The notes beneath the pieces were generated by a model. That model had not been told where the DNA came from. It ran no database searches and saw nothing but the letters and a program-made list of their open reading frames with translations. From Prorocentrum cordatum (Eukaryota), in contig CAUYUJ010000214.1 in the NCBI GenBank assembly GCA_963575745.1, positions 248,001 through 312,000 of the forward strand: a stretch of DNA of 64,000 nt, written 5' to 3'. Both the position numbers and the translations under genes were made by a program. Shown here in pieces: positions 13,781 through 51,828 of the stretch; position 1 is the first letter of the stretch; each line of letters starts with the position of its first letter.

Positions 13781-14007
13781 GGCCAATCTGTGGGTACGGA
13801 TGGCGACGCATCAGCAAAGGACGGCCGAGCACGTTTGCGCGGCGTGTCGCCTGGGCCGCCGTGGCGACGCGCTACCCCAACGTTCCCGACCGCATGGGGT
13901 CCACAGACATTTCCTCCTCCTCCTCCTCCTTTTCGTCGTCGTCCTCCTCCTCCTCCTCCTTTTCGTTCTCCTCCTCCTCCTCGTCCTCCTCCTCCTCCTC
14001 CTCCTCC

Positions 14008-14029
14008 TCCGTAGCCATTTTGGCTCAAG
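14008..14029 (+). other. Perfect DinoSL spliced-leader relic
   Basis: tccgtagccattttggctcaag matches DCCGTAGCCATTTTGGCTCAAG 22/22 and lies 42 nt upstream of ATG 14072. Confidence 0.95.
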
Positions 14030-14071
14030 TCGTGTGTTCCGCCCGCTTTCGGCCGCGCGGGACCGCTTGGG

Positions 14072-15477
14072 ATGGCGCGGGCAGGGTCGCCGCCTGGCGA
14101 TCCTCATGGAGGTCAACGGCGCTCGCGTGCCGAGCGCTCGGCCGCACGGCGGCGGGCGCAGGCTGCTGCTGACCTCGGGCTCGCTGCAGCGCATGCCGAG
14201 GTGGCACGGCTGAACACCCAGCTGATGGCGCAGAAGGACAAGTTCGTCGAGCTCCTCGAGTCCGTCGAGCTCGTGTCTGGAGGCGACCGTGAGCTGGTCG
14301 ATCGGCTGCTGGCAGCGGTGCCCTTTTTGAGCAAGATGCTGGCCGGCCAGGTTCCGGAGCATCTTGATGTGCTACGTCGCAATACGGCACTCCACGCTGA
14401 TGGCGGAGGTCTGCGCTTTGCGGATGCCTCGTGCGCTGAGCTCAGGCACGCCCAAGGGGGACCTCGGCTGGAAGTACGCCGTCATTGTGTCGGGCTCCGT
14501 CGTGATGCTGCTCCCTTCTGGCCGCTGCGGCCGCCTGGAGTCTGGGAGGTTCCTCCCGAGGTGCTCCTGTTGGAGGAGCTCGGGTACGGCTCCGCAGGCG
14601 ACGCAGCTGTGGAGGTGGTGGACGCGTGCCCGTCGAAGGTGTGGCCTTTGGCGGTGGAGCCCGCCAGCGCTACTGCCGCCATGGTGGTGCTGGAGGCCCA
14701 GGTGGTGGGAGGAGAGGCCGAGTGTTGCAGCGGTGGACTCGCAGGTGAGAGCCCCGCGTCGGGAAGGGCCCAGGTGGCGGGAGGAGAGGCCAGGACCCAG
14801 GTGGTTGGCGGAGAGGTCCGAGGGAGGAGCCCGACCCAGGTGGAGGGAGGAGTGGTCGGCTCCCCACGCCGCGCCCAGGTGGTTGGAGGAGAGGCGGAGG
14901 CGATTTCCCCGACATCCTGCGTGGAGCAGGAGGCCCAGGTGGTAGGTGGAGTGGCCCTCGGCGAGATGATAGACCCTAGGGAGTCCGTCGGCATGTCGCA
15001 GTCCGTGCAGCAGGCCAGCAACCACATGATCGAGAAGGCGCACGTCGAGGTCGTCGGCGCTGGCCCGCACGTGCACCCGTGCGTCCTGGTCGTGGCGAAC
15101 TCGTGCATGGTGGAGGCTTCGGCTTGGTTGGACGGCTGGTGGCCGCTGCTGGGGACGATCCCTATGGAGAAACGTCTTGCTTCCTCGAAGCCCAGTATGA
15201 GGACGACCTGGATAGGAACTGGGAGGAGATGGTCGCCGAGATCAACGCGAGCATCAGGCCCATGCCCACCAGCTACCTGACCAGGAGCAGGGACTTCGGG
15301 GCTTTCGTGCAGCACCCGCCTTCATGCCTGTGTATTTCGTGCTTCCGCTCGTGCTGTCGCGATGAAGCTGGAGACAGTGGGCGTGCTGTTCCTCGGTGTC
15401 TACGTGCGGGCATCCTGCGGATAGGCGCCACGATTCTCAAGCCGAAGGCGACGGTCAAGGCGAGGCGCCCAGGCTGA
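14072..15477 (+). pseudogene. Intronless retrocopy of unknown function with AQVVGGEA-type repeats; probable frameshift near 15060-15150
   Basis: SL relic upstream. ORF 14072..15280 has a helical N-terminal part and about 6 [AT]QV[VAE]GG repeats. Overlapping frame 15079..15477 looks like the true C-terminus (EAQYEDDLDRNWEEMVAEINAS, CLCISCFRSCC). Confidence 0.6.
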
Positions 15478-28169: not shown

Positions 28170-29386
28170 GCGTGCTAAAGATGATCTGGGAGTCCTTCGA
28201 GCCCTTGGGATCGCGACCCTCTTGGACGCGGGTCAGTTCAGGCGCAGTATCCGCGGATGTCAAATGATTGTGGCAAGCACGGGTTGAACCTCGACCCACT
28301 CCTTCATAGTACGACCCACGCTTGTGACAAGCCAAGACGGAGATCGGCTGGTCGAGGTGCTCGTAGTAAGACAGAACATGGCCCTTGGGATCCTGCGCTA
28401 AACCAGAAAGCACTTTGCAGTGGCCAGGGCACTTCTCAGCCTCCAATGTAAGACGCTGCTTATAAGATCGGGTCTGAGCCCGACAGATGATGCATCTCCA
28501 TGTGCCAAACATCTGGACAAAGCCGTGGAACCTGCGGGGCTTCTCGGGAGGCTCGGGCGAGGCCATGGGTGGTGGGGGAGAGGCGGCACCCGACGGGGGG
28601 GAGAGAAAAGCTGGTCTCAGGGGTGGTCATCGCTTCATTCTTCCTCGGCGCGATGGCTGGTCACCTTCCCAAAGCGACTGCAGCATATCGGAGGAACTTC
28701 CCACACAGGGGATTATCTTTCTGATGGCCTTGCTTTTCGGCCTCTCTGGGCTGCACCCTTTTGGTTGCAGCAGCTTTGGCATGGTGGTCGGCGGGATCGT
28801 TGCCCGCCGCCAACCTTCGAGCCTTGCTACCCCTTGGGAGGGCTTCACGTCCTGGTGGACTTTCACCTTTAGGAGCCTCCGCCCCAAAGGAACGAGCCCC
28901 TTACCAGCAGCGAGCACCTGAAACCCTGTCCACAGGTTGCGCCGTGGGCATTCGTCACCACCATGCACCTCTAGTGCCCCATTCTAAATATTAGTAGATG
29001 GGTTCTAGCCGCGAGGTGTTCTGCAGCACCTGCCCTTTGAGTGAAAGCCTTACCTACACGCCACACACATGCGCGAACATATTGCCAGCACGCATGCACA
29101 CCACCAAAACACCAGCGGCGTTAAAGACATAGTGACCGTGGTCAGTGCAACTACCATCTGTAGATATCTCTCCTTCTCTAATCGCTTCCGCAGGGCGGAC
29201 GCCGTCTTGAGCACACCAGAACTCCCCAACCTCCAGGCCCGTCCCAGGAGGAGGATCCCCTTCACACTCGGGCAGCCACTGGAAACCCAGGAGTACAGGG
29301 CGGGCCTCAAGGGGGGAAGGCTCTCGAATTCTCTGAGGCTCATCCTCCGAGAAGTGAGTTTGTCTCTGTGCTTTTCGGTCTCCGAG
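28170..29386 (-). mobile_element. Decayed LINE 3' portion: RNase H and Cys-rich C-terminal region
   Basis: GEISTDGSC (~29147-29173), FTQRAGAAEHLAA, LLKVKVHQ (~28852-28876), frameshifted GNDPADHHAK, then WRCIICR...KCPGH...LACHKRGSY...LTRVQEGRDP. Confidence 0.75.
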
Positions 29387-29540
29387 ATATGATCCAGGAC
29401 TCCAGGTCAACGGGCCCCCACCCCCCCCACAGATGGGATGGGTCCCAGGGCTCCACGGGCTCCCCCCCCCTGATGGGACGGTGAGGGGGACGACGACGAC
29501 GACGACGACGACGACGAGGACGACGACTACGACGACGACT

Positions 29541-29581
<41 letters not shown>

Positions 29582-29752
29582 TACGACGACTACGACGACG
29601 GCGACGACGACGACGGCGACGACGACGACGGCGACGGCGACGGCGATGGCGACGACGACGACGACGGCGGCGACAACGACGACGGCGACGACGGTGGCGA
29701 CGACGACGACGACGGCGACGGCGACGACGACGACGGCGACAACGGCGACAAC

Positions 29753-29801
<49 letters not shown>

Positions 29802-30052
29802 GCGAAGACGACGACGACGACGGCGACGGCGGCGGCGGCCCCCGACCCCCGGAGCCCTCCGGCGACGACGGCGGCGGCGGCGACGACGACGACCTCCGGA
29901 GCTCTTCTGGATCACCACGGTACCACGCCACACGCGCCACACCCACAGCACCACACCACACCCACGAGGAGGGGGGCCATCGCGCTGGGGGGGGGGGGGC
30001 GATGGCATCAGCATGAGGGGGGGGGGCGGGGGCCCAGACTCTGGACCATATA
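29387..30052. mobile_element. MITE-like element with short TIRs and internal (GAC/GGC)n, followed by (TA)n to 30075
   Basis: Left end atatgatccag vs right end ctggaccatat (10/11 complementary). The right ~180 bp recurs at 34915-35106. Confidence 0.6.
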
Positions 30053-30549
30053 TATATATATATATATATATATATTCTGATTTCGAGGCGTTGTCTGGGA
30101 TGATGTGCGTTCGGTTCACGGAGCTAGTCGTGATCGGGCGGTGTTTAGGGTGAGGCGCGCGTGGGCAAGCATCTCGTGGTATCTGCTGCAAACGCTTCCG
30201 AGGGGAGTGGGATACACATCCCGTGTTTTGTTGTGGGCCATGTTCCCGTGTTGTGACCAGTCCGTACAGCTTGCGCCGTTGCAGTTCCGGTTACTTACGG
30301 ATGCCGATGAACAAGGTAAGCTATTGAGTCGTAGCGCACCGCGTTTGGGTTCATGGCTCGACATTCTGTCTGCGCAAATCTCACTTTCACCTTCCGTTCT
30401 GACCGCGGCTCCTCTCCTGATCTTGGTGCCTTATGATCATGGCTCCTCCTCCTCTTCCTCCTCCTCCTCCTCCTCCTCCTCCTTCCGGTTTCCCCTGTGC
30501 GACTCCCCGTCGCTCTGCATTGAACCCATTTAATCCTCCTCCTCCTCCT

Positions 30550-30571
30550 TCCGTAGCCATTTTGGCTCCAG
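30550..30571 (+). other. DinoSL spliced-leader relic, one mismatch
   Basis: tccgtagccattttggctccag (21/22), 56 nt upstream of ATG 30628. Confidence 0.92.
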
Positions 30572-30627
30572 AGTTTTGCGCAGATCTGTATCCGGCACCG
30601 TATACTTTGGGACCTATTGACGAGGCC

Positions 30628-32794
30628 ATGGCCTCATGGCACGCCGCGGTGGCCAGGGCCCTGCTTCTCTCGGCCTGGGCCGCCCCGGTGTCGGCGCTCG
30701 TGCTCGAGCCGCGGCCTGGGGCGAGCGGCGGGGCCGTCCTGCGGAGGGCCTCGGTGGATGGCGCAGCGGCGTGTGAGCAAGGTGCTCACCACCCACCAAA
30801 CCACCCCAACCCAACCCGAAGGCTCAGATTTATCCTCGATTTCCAGTGGGGGGGGGTCGGGAAACATCGAAAAAACACGTGTGGAACCCTTACCCCCCCC
30901 CAACCCGAAATTCGGGTCTTCGGGTTGGGTTGGGGTGGTCTGGTAGGTAGTCAGGTGCCTCACCGACGGTGGAAGATGTGCCCGTGAAGGCGGACGCTGC
31001 GGCGAGAAACCCAGACCCCCTCGCGTCGTGGAGCGGAATCGCGACGGGAGGTTTTTCACTGGCTTCGGCCTCCAGGGGCCCGCACCGGGCCTCAGGAGCG
31101 TCAACGAAAACGGCTCGGGAGGAGAAACCAGTCCCGGGGAAAAGGTCCAGACCTCTGGGGGTCGACTAGGGGGCCACATGCGAACCCTACCCCTACCCCC
31201 GACGATTCCTGAAGGGGAGGGTGGGGTTCACTTCGTTCGGGAGCTTCCGAGCGAAGTGAACCCCACCCTCCCCTCCAGAAATCGTGGGGGGTAGGGGTAG
31301 GGTTCGCATGTGGCCCCCTAGTCGACGTCGTGACAAAAACCACGACGCCGGGGGGCTGGGAACGGCGCCGACGAGGCCGAGGCCCGGAGGCAGCAGCCGG
31401 TGCAGCGGCTGATGGCGGAGCATCAGGAGTCGCAGGCGGAGGTGCAGCAGCTGGAGGTGATGGGCCTGTTTTCCACCACCACCACCACCATAAGTTGGAC
31501 CTCCTTCTCCTCCTCCTCCTCCTCCTCCTCCTCCTCCTCCTCCTCCTCCTTCCCCCCTCCAACTTATGGTGGTGGTGGTGGTGGAAAACAGGCCCATCAG
31601 GAGGCCCAGGTTGGGATGAAGGCCTTTTACGCGGAGATCGACGCCTACTGCGAGAACGCCGCGCCGCTTTGGAAGCAGCTGGTCGTTCCCTTCGCGGCCG
31701 TCCTGATGGGGCTGCCGCTGATGCGGTCGGAGGGGACCCTCAACACCATCGGCAAGGTGTGCATCTTCTTTGGCGCGCAGACGTTCATGAACCTGTACAT
31801 GAAGGTCGTCCTTTCAGGCAGCATCGTCTCCAGGGAGTTGCATCTCAAGGGCTACCCAGCCGCCTTCGCCGTCACGGGTATTCAGCAGATAACGAGTTTC
31901 GTCATTATCATGTTGGGGATTGCGTTCCTGTGGTTTTCGCCGTGGCGCTACAAACCAGTGATCGTGGACACGAAGTTCGGCTGGCTGACGGTGCTGGCCT
32001 TCTCAGTCACCTTCACTCTGAACATCGCGCTCAATAACTTCAGCATGTCATTGCTACCTCTGTCGGTCAACCTCATCATGCGATCTTGCTCCCCGCTCTC
32101 GACCTTCTTCTGCGAAATCGCAATGGATAAGGCGGCTGGCAAGAGTGTCAAAGACATCAATGTGATCGAGGTCTCGATGATGCTCCTGGGCATATTGTGC
32201 GCTGGCCTGGCCGTGGTGAGCAAGACCCAGCTTTCCAAGGCCAGCGCTGACCCAGAGGCTGGGTCCAACGTCGTTTTGGGTGTGATCGTTTGTCTGGTCT
32301 CCCTCGTCTCTGTCTCGCTGAACATGGCGCTGGTGGGCCTCATGGGCACCAGCCTGAAGATGAATCCAATAGATACGGCGCTGTACATGGCGCCTCTGTC
32401 GGCACTGATGCTGCTGGTACCCGTTTTCTTCATGCCCCACCCGACCGAGTGGCCTGGCGCCATGATGACCGATTGGCAGATCACGAAGACGGTGGCTCAG
32501 CACGCGCCTGAGGTGCTTGGCCTTGCGCTCTTGTCTGGCGCCTTCGCGGTGTGCTACAACGTGCTGACGTACTTCTTCGTCCAGTCGCTCTCCGCGACGC
32601 ACGCCGCCTTCGCCTCCAACTTCAACAAGGCCGCCACCATCGGCATCGCCGTCATGGTTGGCCTCGAGAACCTCCCCTTCAGCGGCTGGGGCCTCGTGAT
32701 GGCCTGCAGCATCGGCGGAAACATCGCCGCCTTCACGGCCTACAGTCTCTTCAAGGCAGGAGCCTTCGACGGCGCCAACAGGGGCAAGAAGTGA
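30628..32794 (+). CDS. Triose-phosphate translocator / nucleotide-sugar transporter family protein with N-terminal extension. Exon 1 30628-30781, last exon 31601-32794, middle exons unresolved
   Basis: Multiple hydrophobic helices with family-like motifs NLYMKVVL, NIALNNFSMSLLPLSVNLIMRSCSP, MNPIDTALYMAP and YNVLTYFFVQSLSATHAAFASNFNK. Signal-peptide-like start MASWHAAVARALLLSAWAAPVSA follows the SL relic. Linking exon 1 to the domain is inferred. Confidence 0.85.
30782..30954 (+). mobile_element. Introner-like GT-AG intron, 173 nt, with 43-bp imperfect TIRs
   Basis: caag|GTgctc...tcAG|gtgcc; arms 30789-30831 and 30908-30950 match 36/43; junction direct repeat aggtgc. Confidence 0.75.
31161..31326. 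mobile_element. 166-bp foldback (palindromic MITE-like) insertion bounded by GTCGAC
   Basis: Two 83-bp arms, about 5 mismatches, no loop (centre AGCT). Confidence 0.85.
31457..31600 (+). mobile_element. Introner-like GT-AG intron, 144 nt, perfect 42-bp TIRs around a (CCT)n loop
   Basis: gag|GTgatggg...cccatcAG|gag; 31458-31499 is the exact reverse complement of 31558-31599; flanking GAG repeat; splicing gives QQLE|EAQVG. Confidence 0.9.
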
Positions 32795-33462
32795 GGGCGC
32801 TCCGCGAGGGGGGGGAGGGGGCCAGAGGGGTCCAGGGGAACGGGACGGAAGGGAGGGAGGGAGGAGACGTCGCCCGGGAAGTGTCGGGGGGGAGGATTTG
32901 AATGTCAGCGAGGATCGTGTGCGGCACACGATGCTTTGGCACAAGTCCGTAGCCCCGACATCATGCAACACTCCCATCCTGATGTGATGCAGCGTGCGCT
33001 GTTGATAGCTTGTTCTATCAACGGCTCGTTGCGTGGTCGGCACCGGGAACATGTCTCGGACAAAGCCGCTTTGATTGCTTGTTGCAGGCGGTTGGCCTCG
33101 CAGCTTTAGAGCCAGATCGCGCCCGTTGCGGCCACACCGTAATGATTGTTGCCCGCGCGTGGCCTGACCAGATTTCTCCTCCTTCTCCCATCTCCCGTCC
33201 TTCCTCACCACCGAGTGGTTGGCTCTTTGACGGCGCAGCCCCATCGTGTCGAACGCTCGCAGGGAGAGAGCGTAGCCAGATTTCCCCGGGCGGGGCGACG
33301 CGAGTCTGGTCCATCGAACTCGTGCACGGCGGGAAGGCAGCCGTGCTCCTGGGGGGCAGCTGCGGTGCACCCGGCTCCCAGGAGGGCCGCCCATGGTCGA
33401 TTGCGCGCTCCCACACCTTCCACCCCTGCTGCCTCCACCGCCCCTTTCCTTCACCCCACGTC

Positions 33463-33497
33463 GAAGAAGAAGAAGAAGAAAAAGAAGAAGAAGAAGG

Positions 33498-33543
<46 letters not shown>
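33463..33543. repeat. (GAA)n-(TAA)n microsatellite
   Basis: Direct inspection. Confidence 0.95.
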
Positions 33544-33989
33544 GCTACTGCGTAATCATGCACTTTCGAACGTCCGCGCAGATTTCTGGGATCTGCGCTG
33601 GAGCCCCTTTGGGGGCGCCTCCAGCGCCGATCCAGTGAATGCGCACGCACCTCCGGAAATTTATGTTTGTGCCTTTGATTGTTCCTCGATTACAGTCAAC
33701 CCTCACCGTAAGGATTAGCGACTTTCCAAGGTGACACTCGCATCCTTGCCCCTTCGGCCCATCCCCAGCCGATTTCGCTGGCCGCGCCCCGCTCGCAAAG
33801 GGTCGACATGGCCTTCCAAGGCCCTTGCATCCTCATCGTGCGTCCTGATCAGATTGACGGTTTGACTGTCTAGGGTCGTCGTCACATCAGCCTTCAGCAT
33901 CTCGGCCCGGTATCGCCGCCTCAAGAGAGCATCGGGAGCCTTGAGACGGGGGTCGATGCAAACGGGGGTCAGCCAGGGCGCCAGCCAGA

Positions 33990-34355
33990 TCTTAAAGGAT
34001 CCTGCAGAGCCAGGGTCGCATTGACCCGGGCTTGGGTGCAGGACCCTGCAGGATCTTGCAGAATCATGCAGGGCCAGGGTCGCATTGACCTGGGTTTGGG
34101 TGCAGGATCCTGCAGGATCCTGCAAGGCCTGACTGACCCGGGTCTGGATGGACCCGGGTCAGAAGATCCCCGACGGCAGATGGCCAGGGGCGCTTGCGGC
34201 TGCCGAGGCGTTCCAGAAGCCCCCCAGACCTCGCGCCTTCGGTAGCAGACAGTGCGGCGTGTGTAGGGTCCTTCGCAGTTTCTTGTAGACCTCGAGCCTT
34301 CGGCAGCAGACAGCTCGGCGTGTGTAGGTGTCCTTCGCAGTTTCTTGTGTAAGCC
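33990..34355. repeat. Two adjacent ~63-bp tandem duplications
   Basis: gccagggtcgcattgacc...gcaggatcctgca twice, then agacctcg...gtccttcgcagtttcttgt twice. Confidence 0.85.
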
Positions 34356-34914
34356 TTTGCTCCGGCACGCACGCATAAGAACTTCGTGCTATGAGTGTGG
34401 TCCGCCGCCCGCGGCTTCCTACCCCCCTTCGTCGCCTCGTCCTTCTCTTGTGGTGCCCAATCGGGCTCTGGTGTGCCCCCCGCTGCCCCGGCCGCGTCTT
34501 GGGCCCAAGTCGCCGCTGACAAAAAAGTGCCGGCGCTGCACAGTTTCCACACGTCATTGTTCCCTCGTGTCCGCACTCTCAGTAGCGCCTCGCTCGTCGA
34601 CCTGGCTGCGCTCCATCACGGCAGGTTCCAGCCAGGCCTGGCGCGGCCGCGGACGAGCACTAGGGGAACAAAACGTTACATGAGGCATGGACATGAAACG
34701 GAGGTCCGCGCTGGTTTCTTGTATCAGTGGCACCTATTGGATCGGTGCTGGGCCCCCTTTCTGGCGCGCGGAGCGCTCCAGGGGCTGTGCCAGAGACGCT
34801 GCCAGGGAAGTCCAGCTCCGACCCGAGGAAAATTATCCGCGCGGACCTTTGCAAGTTTATGTTCGTACAGTTTTTTGTATTTGTTTTAAAATTTGTTTTG
34901 TGCACAGATGCGCG

Positions 34915-35106
34915 CCGACGACGACGGCGGCGGCGGCGGCGACGACGACGGCTTCCAGAGCTCTCCTGGAGCACCACAGTACCACGCCACACACGCCACA
35001 CCCACAGGACCACATCACACGCACAGGGGGGGGGACCATCGCGCGGGAGGGGGGGGAGCCGATGGCATCAGCATGAGGGGGGGGCGGCCTAGACCCTGGA
35101 CCATAT
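34915..35106. mobile_element. Second, right-end-only copy of the 29387-30052 MITE
   Basis: Shares gagctct...gtaccacgccacac...gatggcatcagcatgaggggggg...ctggaccatat with 29870-30052. Confidence 0.85.
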
Positions 35107-37760
35107 ATGGCCGAGGTCGTCAGAGTGGTGGCCGCATTCACAGCCGGTGAGAAGATCATATCTCGCAGACTTCGCACGCCCCATGGTCCAGATACTCAGC
35201 GTCAGGACGTTTGAGGAGGGATCCTTTTTGTGGTCCTGTGTTGTCTGAGGAGGCGAGGATGATGCGAACTGTACAGACATCAAGAACAACGTCGGGGTAG
35301 CCCAACTTGAACGCGGCTTTCGCAGCGAGCTGGGCGTGCCAGTCAAACTCCACTAGATTTTGGAGGGAAGCGGGGGAGTGTCCTGGGGCGGAGTATTCAA
35401 GTCCCGAGGCAGTCACAAACACAAACGGTCCTCTGAAACTCCACCCGATGCGTTTGAGGGAAAGGACCGCCCGGCACATGGGCCCCTGCAGGAACCCAAG
35501 GCTTTGACAGCTCTCGCGAGGATGGCCTCCACCCAAAGACGCAGCAGCTGGAGACGAGCCACGGCCTGGTTCGGGCGGGTGGCAGTGTCCCAGACAAGGC
35601 AGTGCCACATGAGGGCAGGGCCCAGCGCTGCTTTCCGAGCCGGGTCCTAGAGTATCAGAAGAGACAGACTGCGGCTTCTGGACGGGCAGCGCTGCCCAGT
35701 TGTAGACAACCACTGAGATCTGGCTTGCTCAAGCTGAGTACCGTGTGTGCCAGCAACCTCAACACCGAACGTTGCGGCCGCCCTCAGGACCGTCTGATAC
35801 AGTCTGCGAGTGGTGCCCAAGCACGTTTGAGCATGCTGATGCTGGTGAGTATCTTTTTTATCTTGGTCAGACTTGCAGTGTTTTTTTCCGATGCTTGCGC
35901 CATTTGCGCTGGGGCCAGCCGGCCCCGCTTTCAACCCCGAGGTTGGCCCCAGATCGGTCCAGGGAAGGACCCGCCAGATCCCCAAGAGCTTTCTTGAGTT
36001 TGTCCTGGAGGGACTGATGAGACGCCAGGAGCTGATTCTTCTTGTGGGCAATCTTGCACGTAAGCTCGTCAATGATGCAATCTGCCAGCGATCTGGCAAC
36101 GATGCTGGGCTGGCCGACGATAAGGCTGAAGCTGCGCCCGTGGCAGTGCAACAGCAGGTCATCGATAAACATGGCAAGGCAAACGTGCTGGTAGGCGGCC
36201 GCCCGCTTGTCTAAAGGGCCGAGCACATACATTTGGACGAGACGGGCGGCCCAACTGAGTCCTGCTGCTATGCCCTTCCACGGCCTCCCCGCCGCCATGA
36301 CAGCACACTATCATAAAGCTACAATGCGGATGCTGCCACACTGCGTAAGAGACACTGGGAATCCCGATTCAACGGGTCCTGTGGCGAAATACCCGATCGA
36401 GGTTTTTTCAGAATACTGAGATACATCCCAGAGCACTTGAGCGGAGATTGTTGTTCAGCCGTTGAATTGTGGTATTCATACTCCCATTCCAATCGATCTT
36501 TTGTAGACTACCTATACGATGGAGCGGCCCGCCTGGTGAGCAAGATATGGCCGACGGTGTTGGTGCTCCCACTCGCTGGCCGCAGATCTTCTCAGGCGAG
36601 TCCAGACACGATACAAGGCGGGAGGTATGCCTACAGTCCGGAAAGATCGCTGATTGGCTGGAACATCGTGTTTTTTTTTCTAGTTTGTTCATGAGGGCCG
36701 AAATGATGTCTCGAAGCTGTGTCGGCATGTGCCCAGCCTTCGCAAGGATCGAAATCGTTTTGCAAACTGTTTCAGCTAGCTCATCACAGGGAATGACGGC
36801 ATGGCGAGGGTAGAAACCGTCCCAGGTGGAAGCGGTCGAATGAGGGAAGCTACGTTCCATCTCTCTAATCTTTTCGTGGGTGGTCGGACCCAGCGCGATT
36901 CTATCATTTATGTCAGGACGAAAGTGGGGAGGCGGCTGGGAGGACTTTTGACATATTTAGATAATATGCCGGCTTCTACCTACAAACCAACTTGCGGTGA
37001 GCCTGTGTACTGGCCTTTGTGCCGCACCGAGATGGGCTGCCAGGCCTCCAGCCGCTTTGACCACTTGTGTGCCCATCCCATTCCCCCCTTGGTGCCAGTC
37101 TGCACCCATTCCCTCCAAGCCTTCCCATCTGGAGCAGGTTTCGCGGCCTGTTCTTGGTGCAGCAGCTTGGTAACTTGCTCTAAGAGCTCGTCCAGCACTT
37201 TGATCGCCAGAGTCTGGTCCATAGTGCTGGCTTGAAAATAATCATGCAGCAAGCCTGCAACAACTCGAACATCCTGGATCCCCTCTTTCAAGGCCGCTAC
37301 ATTGGAGAACAACTGTGGGCGATCCTCGAGGCTGTCCAGGCATTCCTGGAACTCCTGCGAGTCCCAGTCCTGGATGCATCGTCTGAAACCCTGAACGCGG
37401 TTGCTCAAACGCCTAATCGGGCCCGTCTAGGCCACTCATGTGGTCCTACTAGCGCTCTTGGCCTCCGCTGGGGCCCAGAGAACCAGAGGGGGTGGAGCCC
37501 TGGGGAACTTACTGGGTTCGAGGGGAGTGTTCGTTTTCTCACTGATTGTAACCTCCATGTCTTGGGCCAGTGTGAAGTAGACGTGGTCCAGGATGGCACT
37601 CGGGTGTTGAACGGAGAGAGGCTGCGGAATATCTTCGATCAATTGTATAGCATACTCAACTACGGCAGCAGTCTGGTGTCAACTCGCTTCGGCGAGCTGA
37701 TGACCCACGGGCACATGGGTGGGCAACTTCTCAGGCCTGAGAAGCGTCGGGATGGACAGG
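35107..37760 (-). mobile_element. Decayed LINE 5' portion: pre-RT region, RT domain and Cys/His motif
   Basis: AWREWVQ..GGMGWAHKW, KGIAAGLSWA...AMFIDD (FIDD 36158-36169), GANLGV, LSLKRIGW, IWTMGR...CECGHHSDDLGH; many stops and frameshifts. Confidence 0.82.
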
Positions 37761-37834: not shown

Positions 37835-39275
37835 CCGACACTTTATTCTGGCACGGCCGCCGCGCCCCCGCTCGCCCCTTCCCCCGCCCCGCTGGCCTCC
37901 CTTTCCTCTTCCCCCCCCAGCCAGCCAAGCTCCTCCTCTTCGCCCTCCCGCAGCATTCAGCCCCCCCCCCCCGTCCCCAGCCAGCGCGCACCCCCCTCCC
38001 CGACCATTTTATTTTCCGGCAGGGCACGGCACCAGCACCGCGATCCCCCTTTCCCCCGCCCTGCAACCATCTCACGCCTCCCAGCCAGGGCACCGTGCTC
38101 CCCTTGTCTTCCCGTAGCCTGGCCCAGCCCCTCCTCGCCCCCCAGCCAGCGCGCCCCCACCGCCCCGACCATTTGATTCCGGGACGGCACGGCACCAGCG
38201 CTGGCACCGCATCCCCCCCTTCCTTCCCCCGTTAGCCCAGCTCCACCTCTTCGCCCCCCCGCAGCCAGCCCAGCTCCCCCGCGCCACGCCCAAGCCAGCG
38301 CGCCCCCCCCGCTCCGACCATTTTATTCCGGCGCAGCACGGCACCAGCACCGCGCCCCCCCGTCCCCCCGCCCCGCAGACGCCCCTTTCCCCCCTTCCTG
38401 TTCCCCCCGTTCCCCCCGCGACCAGCTAGCCCAGCTCTCCGCCTTTCCCGCCCCGCAGCTTAGCCCACGCCTCCCAGCTGGGGCACCGCGCCCCCCTTGC
38501 TCCTGCGCAGCCAGCCCAGCCCCTCCTCGCCCCACAGCCACCGCACCAGCACCGGCTCCGCGCACCCCTCGTTCTTCCTCCCCCCCCGCAGCCAGCCCAG
38601 CTCTTCCTCTTCGCCTCCCACAGCCAGCCCAGATCCTTCTCCGCCCACAGCCAGCGCGCCCCCTCCGCTCCGACCATTTTGTTCCGACGCGTCACGGCAG
38701 TGGCACCGACCCCCCCGCCCCGCAGCCAGCCCACACACCCCAACCAACACACCGTGCTCTCCCTGCCCCCCGCAGCCGGCCCAGCCCTTCCTCGCCCCGT
38801 CAGCGCGCCCCCCCCCGCCCGACCACTTTCCGGGGCGGCACGGCACCAGCGCCGGCACCGCGCCCCCCCGCTCCCTCCCCCTTCGCAGCCAGCCCAGCTT
38901 CTCCTCCTCTTCCTTCTCTCGGGGGAACGTAAGACCCGGGTTTGCCAGGACTCGGGTTCGCCATCGTTTTTTGACGACCGCGCCTCGGATTTTGACGAGG
39001 AGAAATTTCGTGGGATGTCTGCAGCGGGAGGCCTCGTCAAAATGCAGCTCGGCCTCGTCATTTTTTTGACGACCTCGTCGGGGATTTCCGAGTCCCCTGT
39101 ACCCGGGTCTTACGTCTCCCCGATTCTCGCCCCCCGCAGCCAGCCCAGCTCCCCTTCGCGGTCCCTGACCATTTGTATACTCGGGCACGGCACACCGCGC
39201 CCCCCCTTCCCTGGCCCCGCAGGCCGCCCCTTCCCCTACCCTTCCCCCAGATCGCGGCGCGGCACCATCCCCGCG
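37835..39275. repeat. Degenerate C-rich tandem array, ~150-170-bp unit
   Basis: Core cgaccatttt(a)ttccgg..cggcacggcaccagc at about 38001, 38166, 38314, 38671, 38820 and 39166. Confidence 0.8.
38919..39123. mobile_element. 205-bp MITE, TC...GA termini, 5-bp TSD TTCTC
   Basis: TIRs tcgggggaacgtaagacccgggt / acccgggtcttacgtctccccga; ttctc on both flanks; second copy at 51623. Confidence 0.92.
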
Positions 39276-49179: not shown

Positions 49180-49658
49180 GACACACACACACACACACAC
49201 GCACACGCACACGCACACGCACACGCACACGCACACGCACACGCACACACACACGCACACACACAACAGACAACACACAACACACAACACGCAACACACA
49301 ACACACAACACACAACACGCAACACACACCACACACCACACAACACACAACACACAACACACAACACACACCACACAGCACACAGCACACAGCACACAGC
49401 ACACAGCACACAGCACACAGCACACATTACACAGCACACAACACACAACACACAACACACCACGCACGTATGCACACACACACACACGCACGCACNNNNN
49501 NNNNNNNNNNNNNNNNNNNNNNNNNNNNNNNNNNNNNNNNNNNNNNNNNNNNNNNNNNNNNNNNNNNNNNNNNNNNNNNNNNNNNNNNNNNNNNNCACCC
49601 ACACCCATACACACACAGACACACACACAGACACACACACACACCACACACACACACC
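49180..49658. repeat. (CA)n-derived microsatellite spanning the gap
   Basis: cacacg, cacacaa and cacagca units. Confidence 0.93.
49496..49595. other. Assembly gap (100 N)
   Basis: Run of N; true size and contiguity unknown. Confidence 1.
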
Positions 49659-51622: not shown

Positions 51623-51828
51623 TCGGGGGAGCGTAAGACCCGGGTTTGCCGGGACTCGGGTTCGCCATCGTTTTTTGACGACCGCGACTCGGATTTTGAC
51701 GAGGAGGAGTTTCGTGGGATGTCTGCAGCGGGAGGCCTCGTCAAAATGCAGGCTCGGCCTCGTCATTTTTTTGACGACCTCGTCGGGGATTTCCGAGTCC
51801 CCCGTACCCGGGTCTTACGTCTCCCCGA
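51623..51828. mobile_element. 206-bp MITE of the 38919-39123 family, 5-bp TSD ATGGT
   Basis: Nearly identical internal sequence; atggt on both flanks. Confidence 0.92.

What the first reader, a model, noticed from the sequence alone, without database searches (positions are those of the whole stretch)
29387..35106. Gene-carrying composite transposon candidate: a 5.7-kb MITE-bounded segment with a transporter gene splits one LINE
Seen: a minus-strand LINE runs RT to CECGHHSDDLGH and stops at 35107. Minus-strand LINE sequence resumes at 29386 with the domains expected next (RNase H STDGSC, KVKVHQ, Cys-rich tail). The intervening segment begins atatgatccagg and ends cctggaccatat (11/12 inverted match, TA-rich junctions). 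It contains a full MITE, ~4.85 kb of cargo including the SL-tagged transporter, and a diverged second MITE right end. Established: Pack-type and composite DNA transposons move host genes in other eukaryotes. Inference: a MITE transposed using a distal right end and carried a host retrogene, a gene-relocation route I do not know to be described in dinoflagellates. The rejoined junction may lack a few codons.
Basis: partly seen in the sequence, partly recalled or inferred. Interest (0 to 1): 0.82.

Follow-up and report, generated by a model that had tools for sequence, protein, structure and literature searches.

The report
Gene-carrying block splits a LINE
A 5.7-kb piece of DNA, bounded by the inverted ends of a small transposon-like repeat and carrying an intact membrane-transporter gene, sits inside one old dinoflagellate retrotransposon; this fits a gene moved by a pair of transposon ends but does not prove it.

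Summary
Window 29387-35106 (5,720 bp) interrupts one degenerate minus-strand LINE. Profiles built from distant relatives match the right flank up to the zinc-knuckle His codon (35109-35107) and the left flank from the RNase H motif to the C-terminal tail. The matches are in order, and the spacing (77 residues) lies within the relatives' range of 74-128.

The block starts with a 666-bp non-coding element that has about 55 nt of imperfect terminal inverted repeats. It ends with a second copy of that element's right end, about 190 bp long and 85.5% alike, which stops in register. Between them lie a (TA)n run and about 4.87 kb of DNA. That DNA carries a spliced-leader-relic gene for a DMT/sugar-phosphate-type membrane protein, which stays open only if three introns are spliced; two of them are exact palindromic inserts.

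The mechanism is not shown. Transposition as one unit from the left end and the distal right end, like maize Ac/fAc macrotransposons, is my best reading (about 0.42). Copying of the cargo into an ordinary insertion by repair anchored in its (GAC)n core is a serious rival.

No other family copy, clear target duplication, donor site or read support could be obtained. A 17-nt inverted repeat between the left joint and the LINE is unexplained. Interest is moderate.

The parts
35107..37680 (-). 5' part of a degenerate, 5'-truncated APE-type LINE: pre-RT region, RT with FIDD, and zinc knuckle up to ...CECGHHSDDLGH. It has several frameshifts.
   Evidence: P0107 residues 302-1117 match 37651-35213 in order; profile positions 3-38 end at the His codon 35109-35107. 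The upper limit of about 37680 is taken from the first match to P0107 and is approximate.
28189..29386 (-). 3' part of the same LINE: linker, RNase H (ISTDGSC, KVKVHQ) and Cys-rich C-terminal tail, spread over three frames.
   Evidence: a profile of 14 relatives matches 29176-29078, 29090-29001, 28843-28634 and 28656-28189 in order (i-E 3e-4, 1.3e-3, 9.8e-9, 7.8e-18). P0107 1416-1519 matches 28605-28309.
29387..30052 (+). Complete non-coding TIR element ('MITE-like'), about 666 bp. It has a left end of about 95 bp, a (GAC/GGC)n core at about 29480-29900, and a right end (R1) at 29860-30052.
   Evidence: The terminal inverted repeat is imperfect over about 55 nt; 0 of 1000 shuffles reach its score.
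30047..30075 (.). (TA)n run directly after the internal right end R1.
   Evidence: Read directly.
30053..34918 (+). Cargo, about 4.87 kb: about 0.5 kb upstream DNA, the spliced-leader-relic gene, its 3' region, and 1.4 kb of further non-coding DNA with short tandem repeats.
   Evidence: In one search, 14 ORFs of the block outside the transporter gene (two of them running into the second right end) gave no Pfam hit at E <= 0.01, so no transposase was seen.
30551..30571 (+). Dinoflagellate spliced-leader relic, 20 of 21 bases, 57 nt upstream of the ATG at 30628.
   Evidence: 2 matches in the window at up to 3 mismatches, and 0 of 100 shuffles give any.
30628..32794 (+). Gene for a 486-aa multi-pass membrane protein of the dinoflagellate DMT / sugar-phosphate-transporter group. 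Exons are about 30628-30781, 30955-30983, 31376-31456 and 31601-32794.
   Evidence: 78 relatives, the best 87% identical; some carry PF03151, PF08449 or PF00892; the mRNA-derived relative P0001 aligns across the inserts; the CDS is open only with three GT-AG introns. The intron 2 boundaries are the best-scoring of several.
30782..30954 (+). Intron 1, 173 nt. It is essentially one palindromic insert (arms 30785-30831 and 30908-30954) with GT...AG ends and a GTGC(T/C)CACC direct repeat at its edges.
31161..31326 (+). 166-nt palindrome (two 83-nt arms, 94% complementary) inside intron 2 (about 30984-31375).
31457..31600 (+). Intron 3, 144 nt, GT...AG. It is a palindromic insert with 42-nt perfect arms around a (CCT)n loop.
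33468..33545 (+). (GAA)n(TAA)n A-rich run about 0.7 kb after the stop codon. It may be a decayed poly(A) relic marking the 3' end of the retrocopy; this is inference only.
   Evidence: Read directly.
34919..35106 (+). Second, partial copy of the element's right end (R2). It starts in a short (GAC/GGC)n block and has no left end.
   Evidence: 85.5% identity to 29860-30052; same terminal 13-mer. No left-end-like sequence occurs elsewhere in the block.
29378..29394 (+). Left joint 17-mer: the last 9 nt of the LINE flank plus the first 8 nt of the element. It is the inverted repeat of 35154-35170.
   Evidence: 16 of 17 bases match; 0 of 500 shuffles reach 17 (largest 14). Unexplained.
35154..35192 (-). 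LINE coding stretch (I-W-T-M...S-A-R-Y-D-L) 47-85 nt from the right joint. It holds the inverted partner of the left-joint 17-mer (35154-35170) and an inverted 10-mer identical to the tip of R1 (35183-35192).
   Evidence: Searches show that these codons are conserved family residues.

Best explanation
A non-autonomous TIR DNA element and, about 4.9 kb downstream in the same orientation, a fractured copy that keeps only its right end once flanked a stretch of host DNA. That DNA held a retro-copied, spliced-leader-tagged transporter gene. A transposase supplied in trans (not identified) paired the left end of the complete copy with the right end of the fractured copy. It skipped the nearer internal right end and moved the whole 5.7-kb unit into the zinc-knuckle codons of an already inserted LINE.

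**Shown:** the structure, the inverted termini, the second right end ending in register, and the collinear split of one LINE.

**Inferred:** that the unit travelled as one piece, which transposase did it, and when the three introns entered the gene.
For: - **The outer boundaries are a left end and a right end in proper inverted orientation.** The tips match 11/12, and about 55 nt are significantly alike; 0 of 1000 shuffles reach the score.
- **Two independent criteria agree on the right boundary.** R1/R2 similarity ends at 35106-35108, and the LINE profile match ends at the conserved His codon 35109-35107.
- **Both flanks are one LINE.**
  - They lie on the same strand and match the relatives in the right order.
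  - The spacing is 77 residues against 74-128 in 17 relatives.
  - 57 window residues stand against 63 profile positions between the two matched parts.
- **R1 and R2 differ by 14.5%, so they are two different copies and not a recent local duplication**.
- **The block encodes no recognisable transposase,** as expected of a non-autonomous unit (14 ORFs, 0 Pfam hits).
- **The mechanism has precedent.** Maize structures ending in Ac 5' and 3' termini, including fractured Ac, excise and reinsert as 10-28 kb macrotransposons (PMC9910405, passages read).
Against: - There is only one instance.
- No other member of the element family was found to define termini and target duplication.
- The target duplication is ambiguous. 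The 9-nt flanks agree at 6 of 9 positions, or the AT/ATAT at the tips may be the duplication.
- No donor site, second cargo copy or empty LINE site could be examined, because no genome is held.
- No reads could be laid.
- R2 similarity begins exactly at a (GAC/GGC)n block. Repeat-anchored repair predicts this at least as well as random fracture does.
- The family motif R-x3-C expected after the His is not visible after the joint.
- The 17-nt inverted repeat between the left joint and the LINE is not predicted by simple cut-and-paste.
Confidence: 0.42

Rival explanations
1. In-situ acquisition. One ordinary copy of the small element (left end ... R2) inserted into the LINE. Later a break in its (GAC)n core was repaired from another copy of the element elsewhere. 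The cargo was copied in and never transposed. The product is a Pack-type element in the making.
For: - R2 similarity starts exactly in a (GAC/GGC)n block, and the internal copy R1 is preceded by about 420 bp of the same microsatellite. Both edges of the putatively acquired stretch therefore lie in the same simple repeat.
- R1 and R2 are different copies, 85.5% alike, as this model needs.
- Internal acquisition by gap repair is the usual explanation for Pack-type elements. This is recalled; PMC8903248 and PMC13317346 were seen only in the search listing with the start of their abstracts.
Against: - It requires about 5 kb of ectopic synthesis and a fortuitous simple repeat or microhomology at the far end of the donor.
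- It is no simpler than use of a distal end.
- No second copy of the cargo could be looked for.
Confidence: 0.27
2. Another multi-step history or an artefact. Examples are two separate insertions plus deletions, recombination between dispersed copies, replication-based template switching (MMBIR or polymerase-theta type) that brought in the block, or a chimeric assembly at the repeated right ends.
For: - The 17-nt inverted copy of LINE sequence, which in the unbroken LINE would lie about 50 nt away, sits exactly on the left joint. Templated insertions of that kind are typical of end-joining and template-switch repair (recalled).
- No reads could be laid to verify the joins.
Against: - The first 8 nt of that 17-mer are also part of the significant inverted repeat with both right ends, so they belong to the element.
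- A mis-assembly would need two chimeric joins between repeats only 85% alike, and would have to restore one collinear LINE by chance.
- The only N run in the window is at 49496-49595, far away.
Confidence: 0.2
3. The two LINE stretches are separate copies or fragments that merely lie near each other, and the block is ordinary intervening DNA.
For: - No close LINE copy was available for a base-level check. The relatives are only about 25-40% identical.
- No frame of the first 170 nt or so left of the joint matches the family profile.
Against: - Same strand, correct order and no overlap.
- Spacing within the family range.
- Both breaks coincide with the element's termini to within 2 nt.
Confidence: 0.06

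Closest known systems
Ac/fAc macrotransposons of maize (Huang and Dooner 2008, cited in PMC9910405; passages of PMC9910405 read)
   Same: One complete element and a terminal fragment of a second, in direct orientation, bound kilobases of host DNA. The outermost 5' and 3' termini act as one transposon that can excise and reinsert.
   Different: - The maize cases are hAT elements with a known transposase and 8-bp duplications, and both excision and reinsertion were observed.
- Here the superfamily, transposase and duplication are unknown, and only one static insertion is seen.
Pack-MULE / Pack-TYPE elements of plants (PMC8903248 and PMC13317346, each seen only in the search listing with the start of its abstract)
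   Same: A non-autonomous TIR element with host coding DNA between its ends.
   Different: - As recalled, Pack elements usually hold gene fragments acquired internally, and belong to families with many copies.
- Here a whole, apparently intact gene with flanking DNA and an extra internal transposon end is enclosed.
- The 9-nt flanks agree at only 6 of 9 positions.
Bacterial composite transposons (Tn5/Tn10 type) and Drosophila foldback-bounded 'TE' giant transposons (recalled, not looked up)
   Same: Two copies of a small mobile element mobilise whatever lies between them.
   Different: - They use different enzymes and occur in different hosts.
- Bacterial cases have two complete IS copies, whereas here one copy is only a right end.
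DinoSL-relic retrogenes of dinoflagellates (PMC6050394, PMC5585692; starts of abstracts seen in the listing)
   Same: The cargo gene carries a 20/21 spliced-leader relic in its DNA just upstream of the ATG, which is the accepted mark of retroposition.
   Different: The gene now has three introns, presumably gained later. Its present position is inside a TIR-bounded block, which is not part of the retrogene concept.
Introner elements of dinoflagellates (PMC9860276 in the listing; PMC7789003 in the listings; Roy et al. 2023 as cited in PMC11453091)
   Same: Introns 1 and 3 of the cargo gene are exactly palindromic inserts with GT...AG ends, and intron 1 has a short direct repeat at its edges.
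   Different: Family membership was not tested, and no other copies are in the window.

Membership tests
Non-autonomous TIR DNA transposon (MITE-like) | Terminal inverted repeats | tested here: met
   The tips match 11/12, and about 55 nt are alike with gaps. 0 of 1000 shuffles reach the score against either right end.
Non-autonomous TIR DNA transposon (MITE-like) | Target-site duplication of fixed length flanking the termini | tested here: inconclusive
   The 9-nt flanks agree at 6 of 9 positions. Alternatively AT or ATAT at the tips may be the duplication. Other lengths agree no better than chance.
Non-autonomous TIR DNA transposon (MITE-like) | Many dispersed copies with the same ends | tested here: inconclusive
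   Two right ends stop in register. No further copy was found in the 64-kb window. A 20-mer found no match in metagenome or viral contigs, and the 7 loci found with a looser pattern are chance matches. The genome itself is not held.
Non-autonomous TIR DNA transposon (MITE-like) | Small and without a transposase gene | tested here: met
   The element is 666 bp, mostly (GAC)n. 14 ORFs of the block gave no Pfam hit.
Macrotransposon / composite transposon | Outer termini come from two separate element copies in direct orientation enclosing host DNA | tested here: met
   A complete copy at 29387-30052 plus a right-end fragment at 34919-35106, 85.5% alike, on the same strand.
Macrotransposon / composite transposon | Inserted as one unit: the flanks join into an uninterrupted target | tested here: inconclusive
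   At domain level the flanks are one collinear LINE with normal spacing. Base-level contiguity could not be tested, and an in-situ acquisition gives the same flanks.
Macrotransposon / composite transposon | Donor site, further copies of the unit, or observed excision | not testable with these tools
Pack-MULE | 9-11 bp target duplication and long Mutator-type TIRs | tested here: inconclusive
   The 9-mer flanks agree at 6 of 9 positions. The TIR similarity runs about 55 nt. No relation to any MULE was tested or shown.
APE-type LINE with zinc knuckle and RNase H | Reverse transcriptase | tested here: met
   The window piece gives only a weak RVT_1 hit (E 0.06). It has 147 relatives at E <= 0.001. 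Of six relatives scanned, three hit RVT_1; P0089 passes the curated cut-off (42.2 bits), while P0150 and P0144 fall below it.
APE-type LINE with zinc knuckle and RNase H | zf-RVT zinc knuckle, RNase H and C-terminal domain downstream of RT, in that order | tested here: met
   Profiles from 17 and 14 relatives match in order across the two flanks. In the relatives zf-RVT and RNase_H score just below Pfam's cut-offs.
APE-type LINE with zinc knuckle and RNase H | Apurinic-type endonuclease at the N-terminus | tested here: not met
   This domain is present in the relatives P0096 and P0107. The window copy matches P0107 only from residue 302 on, so the copy is 5'-truncated or interrupted near 37680.
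DinoSL retrogene | Spliced-leader relic encoded upstream of the coding region | tested here: met
   20 of 21 bases at 30551-30571; 0 of 100 shuffles give any match.
DinoSL retrogene | Intron-less copy with a poly(A) relic | tested here: not met
   Three GT-AG introns are needed for an open frame. They look like later insertions. An A-rich (GAA)n(TAA)n run at 33468-33545 is only a possible poly(A) relic.
DMT / sugar-phosphate (TPT) transporter | Match to the family's profile | tested here: inconclusive
   The window protein has no Pfam hit even at E <= 10. Among 78 relatives (best 87% identical), several carry PF03151, PF08449 or PF00892 and source names such as 'DMT-like permease' and 'sugar phosphate transporter domain'.

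The most novel reading that the evidence does not exclude
Dinoflagellates have a working DNA-transposon route for relocating whole, expressed genes. Pairs of ends from a small TIR element, one complete copy and one fractured copy, mobilise several kilobases of host DNA, including a retro-copied transporter gene. Target choice may be guided by sequence in the target that resembles the element's own ends: the LINE holds, within 85 nt of the insertion point, inverted copies of the left joint 17-mer and of the right-end 10-mer.
Probability: 0.35. Interest if true: 0.62.

Novelty: new member of a known kind. Interest (0 to 1): 0.45.

Why it matters
Gene duplication and relocation in dinoflagellates are currently explained by tandem duplication and by retroposition of spliced-leader-tagged mRNAs.

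- A 2024 review of dinoflagellate genomics contains no occurrence of 'MITE' or 'gene capture' and names DNA transposons once, in passing (PMC11453091, term search).
- My three literature searches on dinoflagellate transposons and gene capture did not list a dinoflagellate case of gene capture or macrotransposition.

If the block moved as a unit, it would show a second route, DNA-level cut-and-paste of a whole gene together with its regulatory surroundings. It would also give a concrete element whose ends and partner transposase could be sought genome-wide.

If it did not move as a unit, the locus is still a clean example of layered events: LINE, then TIR element, then cargo, then introners. 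But it is ordinary.

Tried and rejected
- **Whole-genome search:** no genome is held for this window.
- **Sequencing runs:**
  - 20 of 24 listed runs hold only small shares (0.18 or less) of the words of 28300-36300, and four of them are on record as RNA.
  - None was laid, so this says nothing about expression, habitat or the junctions.
There is therefore no read evidence for or against the joins.
- **Protein search with the left-flank piece 29054-29386(-):** no hit among longer proteins.
- **Search for other copies of the element:**
  - A 20-mer shared by both right ends gave 0 matches in metagenome contigs and 0 in viral contigs.
  - A looser gapped pattern gave 7 metagenome loci. On blastn they share at most the seed, a 16-nt match in one locus (L005), so they are chance matches.
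  - Earlier notes of this scan hold no look-alike of the right end and nothing near this place.
- **Pfam scans:**
  - LINE ORF pieces gave only one weak RVT_1 hit.
  - The transporter gave nothing.
  - 14 other ORFs of the block and 24 long ORFs elsewhere in the window gave nothing, so no candidate transposase was found.
- **Reading frame across the joint as a test of the duplication length:** abandoned. No frame of the first 170 nt or so left of the joint matches the family profile, so the fact that removing 29387-35106 keeps the frame open is uninformative.
- **5-bp duplication CCGAG with the element ending at 35110:** rejected. R1/R2 similarity ends before that point, and the His codon at 35107-35109 is a conserved LINE residue.
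- **LINE template switching onto the transporter mRNA as the source of the block:** rejected. The gene lies on the opposite strand to the LINE.
Full report
**What is there**

The window reads like dinoflagellate nuclear DNA. It is GC-rich, full of trinucleotide runs, and has two DNA-encoded spliced-leader relics. No whole genome is held for it.

Between 29387 and 35106 lies a 5,720-bp block. From left to right it contains:

- **A 666-bp non-coding element, 29387-30052.** It has a left end of about 95 bp, about 420 bp of (GAC/GGC)n, and a right end (R1).
- **A (TA)n run, 30047-30075.**
- **About 4.87 kb of other DNA.**
- **A second right end (R2), 34919-35106.** It is 85.5% identical to 29860-30052 over 193-194 nt.

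**The termini**

- The block starts ATATGATCCAGG and ends CCTGGACCATAT.
- The degenerate 12-mer hits exactly only the three ends in 64 kb.
- The left end and the reverse complement of either right end are alike over about 55 nt, allowing a 7-nt local duplication in the left end. 0 of 1000 shuffles reach the observed scores, whether over 60 nt or over the first 22 nt, which excludes the C-runs.
- R1 and R2 share their last 13 bases and diverge immediately afterwards. R1 runs into (TA)n and R2 into LINE sequence. The right terminus is therefore defined by two copies, to within the AT-repeat ambiguity.

**The LINE**

On the minus strand, the flanks translate into frameshifted pieces of a non-LTR retrotransposon. 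Pfam sees only a weak RVT_1 match, and the window has no second copy.

A full HMMER search with the RT piece 35867-36307(-) found 147 relatives at E <= 0.001, of which 17 were at E <= 1e-10.

Laying all 147 back on the window by tblastn showed three long proteins that match both flanks. Twelve long relatives were then laid on the two flanks alone. Four of them (P0107, P0096, P0215, P0150) match the RT side on the right flank and the Cys-rich tail on the left flank in collinear order. A fifth (P0211) does so weakly. The other seven show no significant left-flank match.

Of six relatives scanned with Pfam, five carry one or more of Exo_endo_phos, RVT_1, zf-RVT and RNase_H, several just under the curated cut-offs; P0202 has none. 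The family architecture is APE-RT-zinc knuckle-RNase H-tail.

Seventeen of the 147 relatives have both the knuckle (C-x2-C-x6-10-H-x3-5-C) and a DGSC-type RNase H start within 130 residues.

- A profile of that segment matches the right flank at positions 3-38. The stretch ...IWTMGRAKSARYDLLTGCECGHHSDDLGH ends on the conserved His, codon 35109-35107.
- The same profile matches the left flank at positions 102-143...EGEISTDGSC....
- With the block removed, the His-to-Asp distance is 77 residues. The 17 relatives have 74-128, median 83.
- Fifty-seven window residues stand against 63 profile positions in the variable linker.
- A second profile from 14 relatives, running from DGSC to the C-terminus, matches the left flank in order across three frames down to 28189.

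The two halves are therefore one LINE, broken inside its zinc knuckle, with at most a handful of residues lost or gained.

Limits of this test:

- The relatives are only 25-40% identical.
- No frame of the first 170 nt or so after the left joint matches the profile.
- The expected R-x3-C after the His is not visible.
- Base-level contiguity and the target duplication therefore stay open.
- The copy matches P0107 only from residue 302 on, so it lacks the endonuclease part.

**The cargo**

A 20/21 spliced-leader relic lies at 30551-30571, 57 nt before an ATG.

The last exon (397 aa) has 78 relatives. The best are 80-87% identical, from environmental transcript-sized contigs. More distant ones come from Polarella, Symbiodinium, Durusdinium and Prorocentrum. 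They are named DMT-like permease or sugar phosphate transporter domain protein, and some carry PF03151, PF08449 or PF00892. The window protein itself gives no Pfam hit. 'Transporter' thus rests on homologues.

The relative P0001 aligns to the window in three blocks that skip the palindromic inserts. An open 486-aa frame exists only with three GT-AG introns:

- Intron 1, 30782-30954.
- Intron 2, about 30984-31375.
- Intron 3, 31457-31600.

Without intron 2 the frame breaks, with 25 stops. Introns 1 and 3 are exactly palindromic inserts, and intron 2 contains a 166-nt palindrome.

The gene is therefore a retrocopy that later gained introner-like introns, a process described for dinoflagellates (PMC9860276, listing; Roy et al. 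2023 as cited in PMC11453091).

Fourteen other ORFs of the block have no Pfam hit, and neither do 24 long ORFs elsewhere in the window. No transposase is in sight.

**How it probably arose**

Best reading (about 0.42): the complete element and a downstream fragment that retains only a right end flanked the gene at a donor locus. A transposase acting in trans used the left end and the distal right end. The 5.7-kb unit then landed in the LINE.

This is the logic of maize Ac/fAc macrotransposons, which excise and reinsert as units of 10-28 kb (PMC9910405, passages).

Main rival (about 0.27): a normal insertion of the small element (left end ... R2) was later broken in its (GAC)n core. It was repaired from another copy elsewhere, and synthesis ran through that copy's right end, its (TA)n flank and about 4.9 kb of neighbouring DNA before re-annealing in the (GAC/GGC)n block beside R2.

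Both models need two different element copies, and R1 and R2 are 14.5% apart. Both give the same flanks. The start of R2 similarity exactly at a simple repeat fits the rival at least as well.

Two other readings are less likely:

- **Other multi-step or template-switch histories, or a chimeric assembly (about 0.2).** A mis-join would need two chimeric joins between 85%-alike repeats that happen to restore one LINE. The only N run is at 49496-49595.
- **Two unrelated LINE fragments (about 0.06).**

**Target duplication**

With the element taken as 29387-35106, the 9-nt flanks agree at 6 of 9 positions, and other lengths agree no better than chance. If the AT-rich tips belong to the target, AT or ATAT is duplicated, and R1 is also followed by ATAT. 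No decision is possible from one insertion.

**An unexplained feature**

The 17 bases across the left joint (29378-29394) consist of 9 nt of LINE flank plus the first 8 nt of the element. They recur inverted, 16 of 17, at 35154-35170 inside the LINE, 47 nt from the right joint. 0 of 500 shuffles reach 17; the largest is 14.

The last 10 bases of R1 before its terminal AT (30040-30049) also recur inverted at 35183-35192.

Both LINE stretches are conserved coding sequence (I-W-T-M and A-R-Y-D-L). The 8 element bases are part of the significant terminal inverted repeat.

Neither simple cut-and-paste nor a templated filler explains both facts. One possibility is an end-like sequence or a hairpin in the target that favoured insertion there. 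This is speculation.

**What could not be done**

- No other copy of the element was found:
  - window;
  - metagenome and viral contigs;
  - the seven loci, which are chance matches;
  - earlier notes.
- No run holds more than 0.18 of the words of the stretch. The junctions have no read support and expression is untested.

**Literature**

- Searches for dinoflagellate plus MITE, DNA transposon, gene capture, macrotransposition, composite transposon, Pack-MULE or transduplication listed no dinoflagellate case.
- A 2024 review has 0 occurrences of 'MITE' and 'gene capture' (PMC11453091).
- The library is partial, so this is not proof of absence.

**Earlier notes on the same genome**

Earlier notes describe other large cargo-bearing transposon loci. 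For one hAT-like case it was likewise not shown that the genes travelled with the ends.

**Verdict**

Noticed in passing
window 30782-30954, 31161-31326, 31457-31600: The transporter gene is interrupted by three palindromic inserts. Two are exactly GT...AG introns of 173 and 144 nt, and one of these has a short direct repeat at its edges. The third is a 166-nt near-perfect palindrome inside a 392-nt intron. They look like introner elements gained after retroposition.
   Followed up: partly
window 14009-14029 (+): A second, perfect 21/21 spliced-leader relic. Like the one at 30551, it is preceded by about 100 nt of (CCT)n-rich sequence; 13920-14029 is 71% alike to 30443-30571. A long ORF, 14015-15277(+), follows but has no Pfam hit.
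   Followed up: partly
window 29378-29394 and 35154-35192: A 17-nt inverted repeat (16/17) between the left joint and LINE coding sequence 47 nt from the right joint, plus an inverted 10-mer identical to the R1 tip. This is beyond chance (0 of 500 shuffles) and unexplained.
   Followed up: partly
window 37900-38930: Directly upstream of the truncated LINE lies about 1 kb of diverged tandem repeats (65-75% alike, period roughly 160-330 nt). They translate as proline-rich low-complexity sequence on both strands.
   Followed up: no
window 38919-39123 and 51623-51828: A 206-bp dispersed repeat, 96.6% identical, same strand.
   Followed up: no
window 33981-34108 and 34226-34348: Two short tandem duplications inside the non-coding part of the cargo: 64-nt units 83% alike, and 61-nt units 92% alike.
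   Followed up: no
window 49496-49595: A run of 100 N, an assembly gap and the only one in the window.
   Followed up: no
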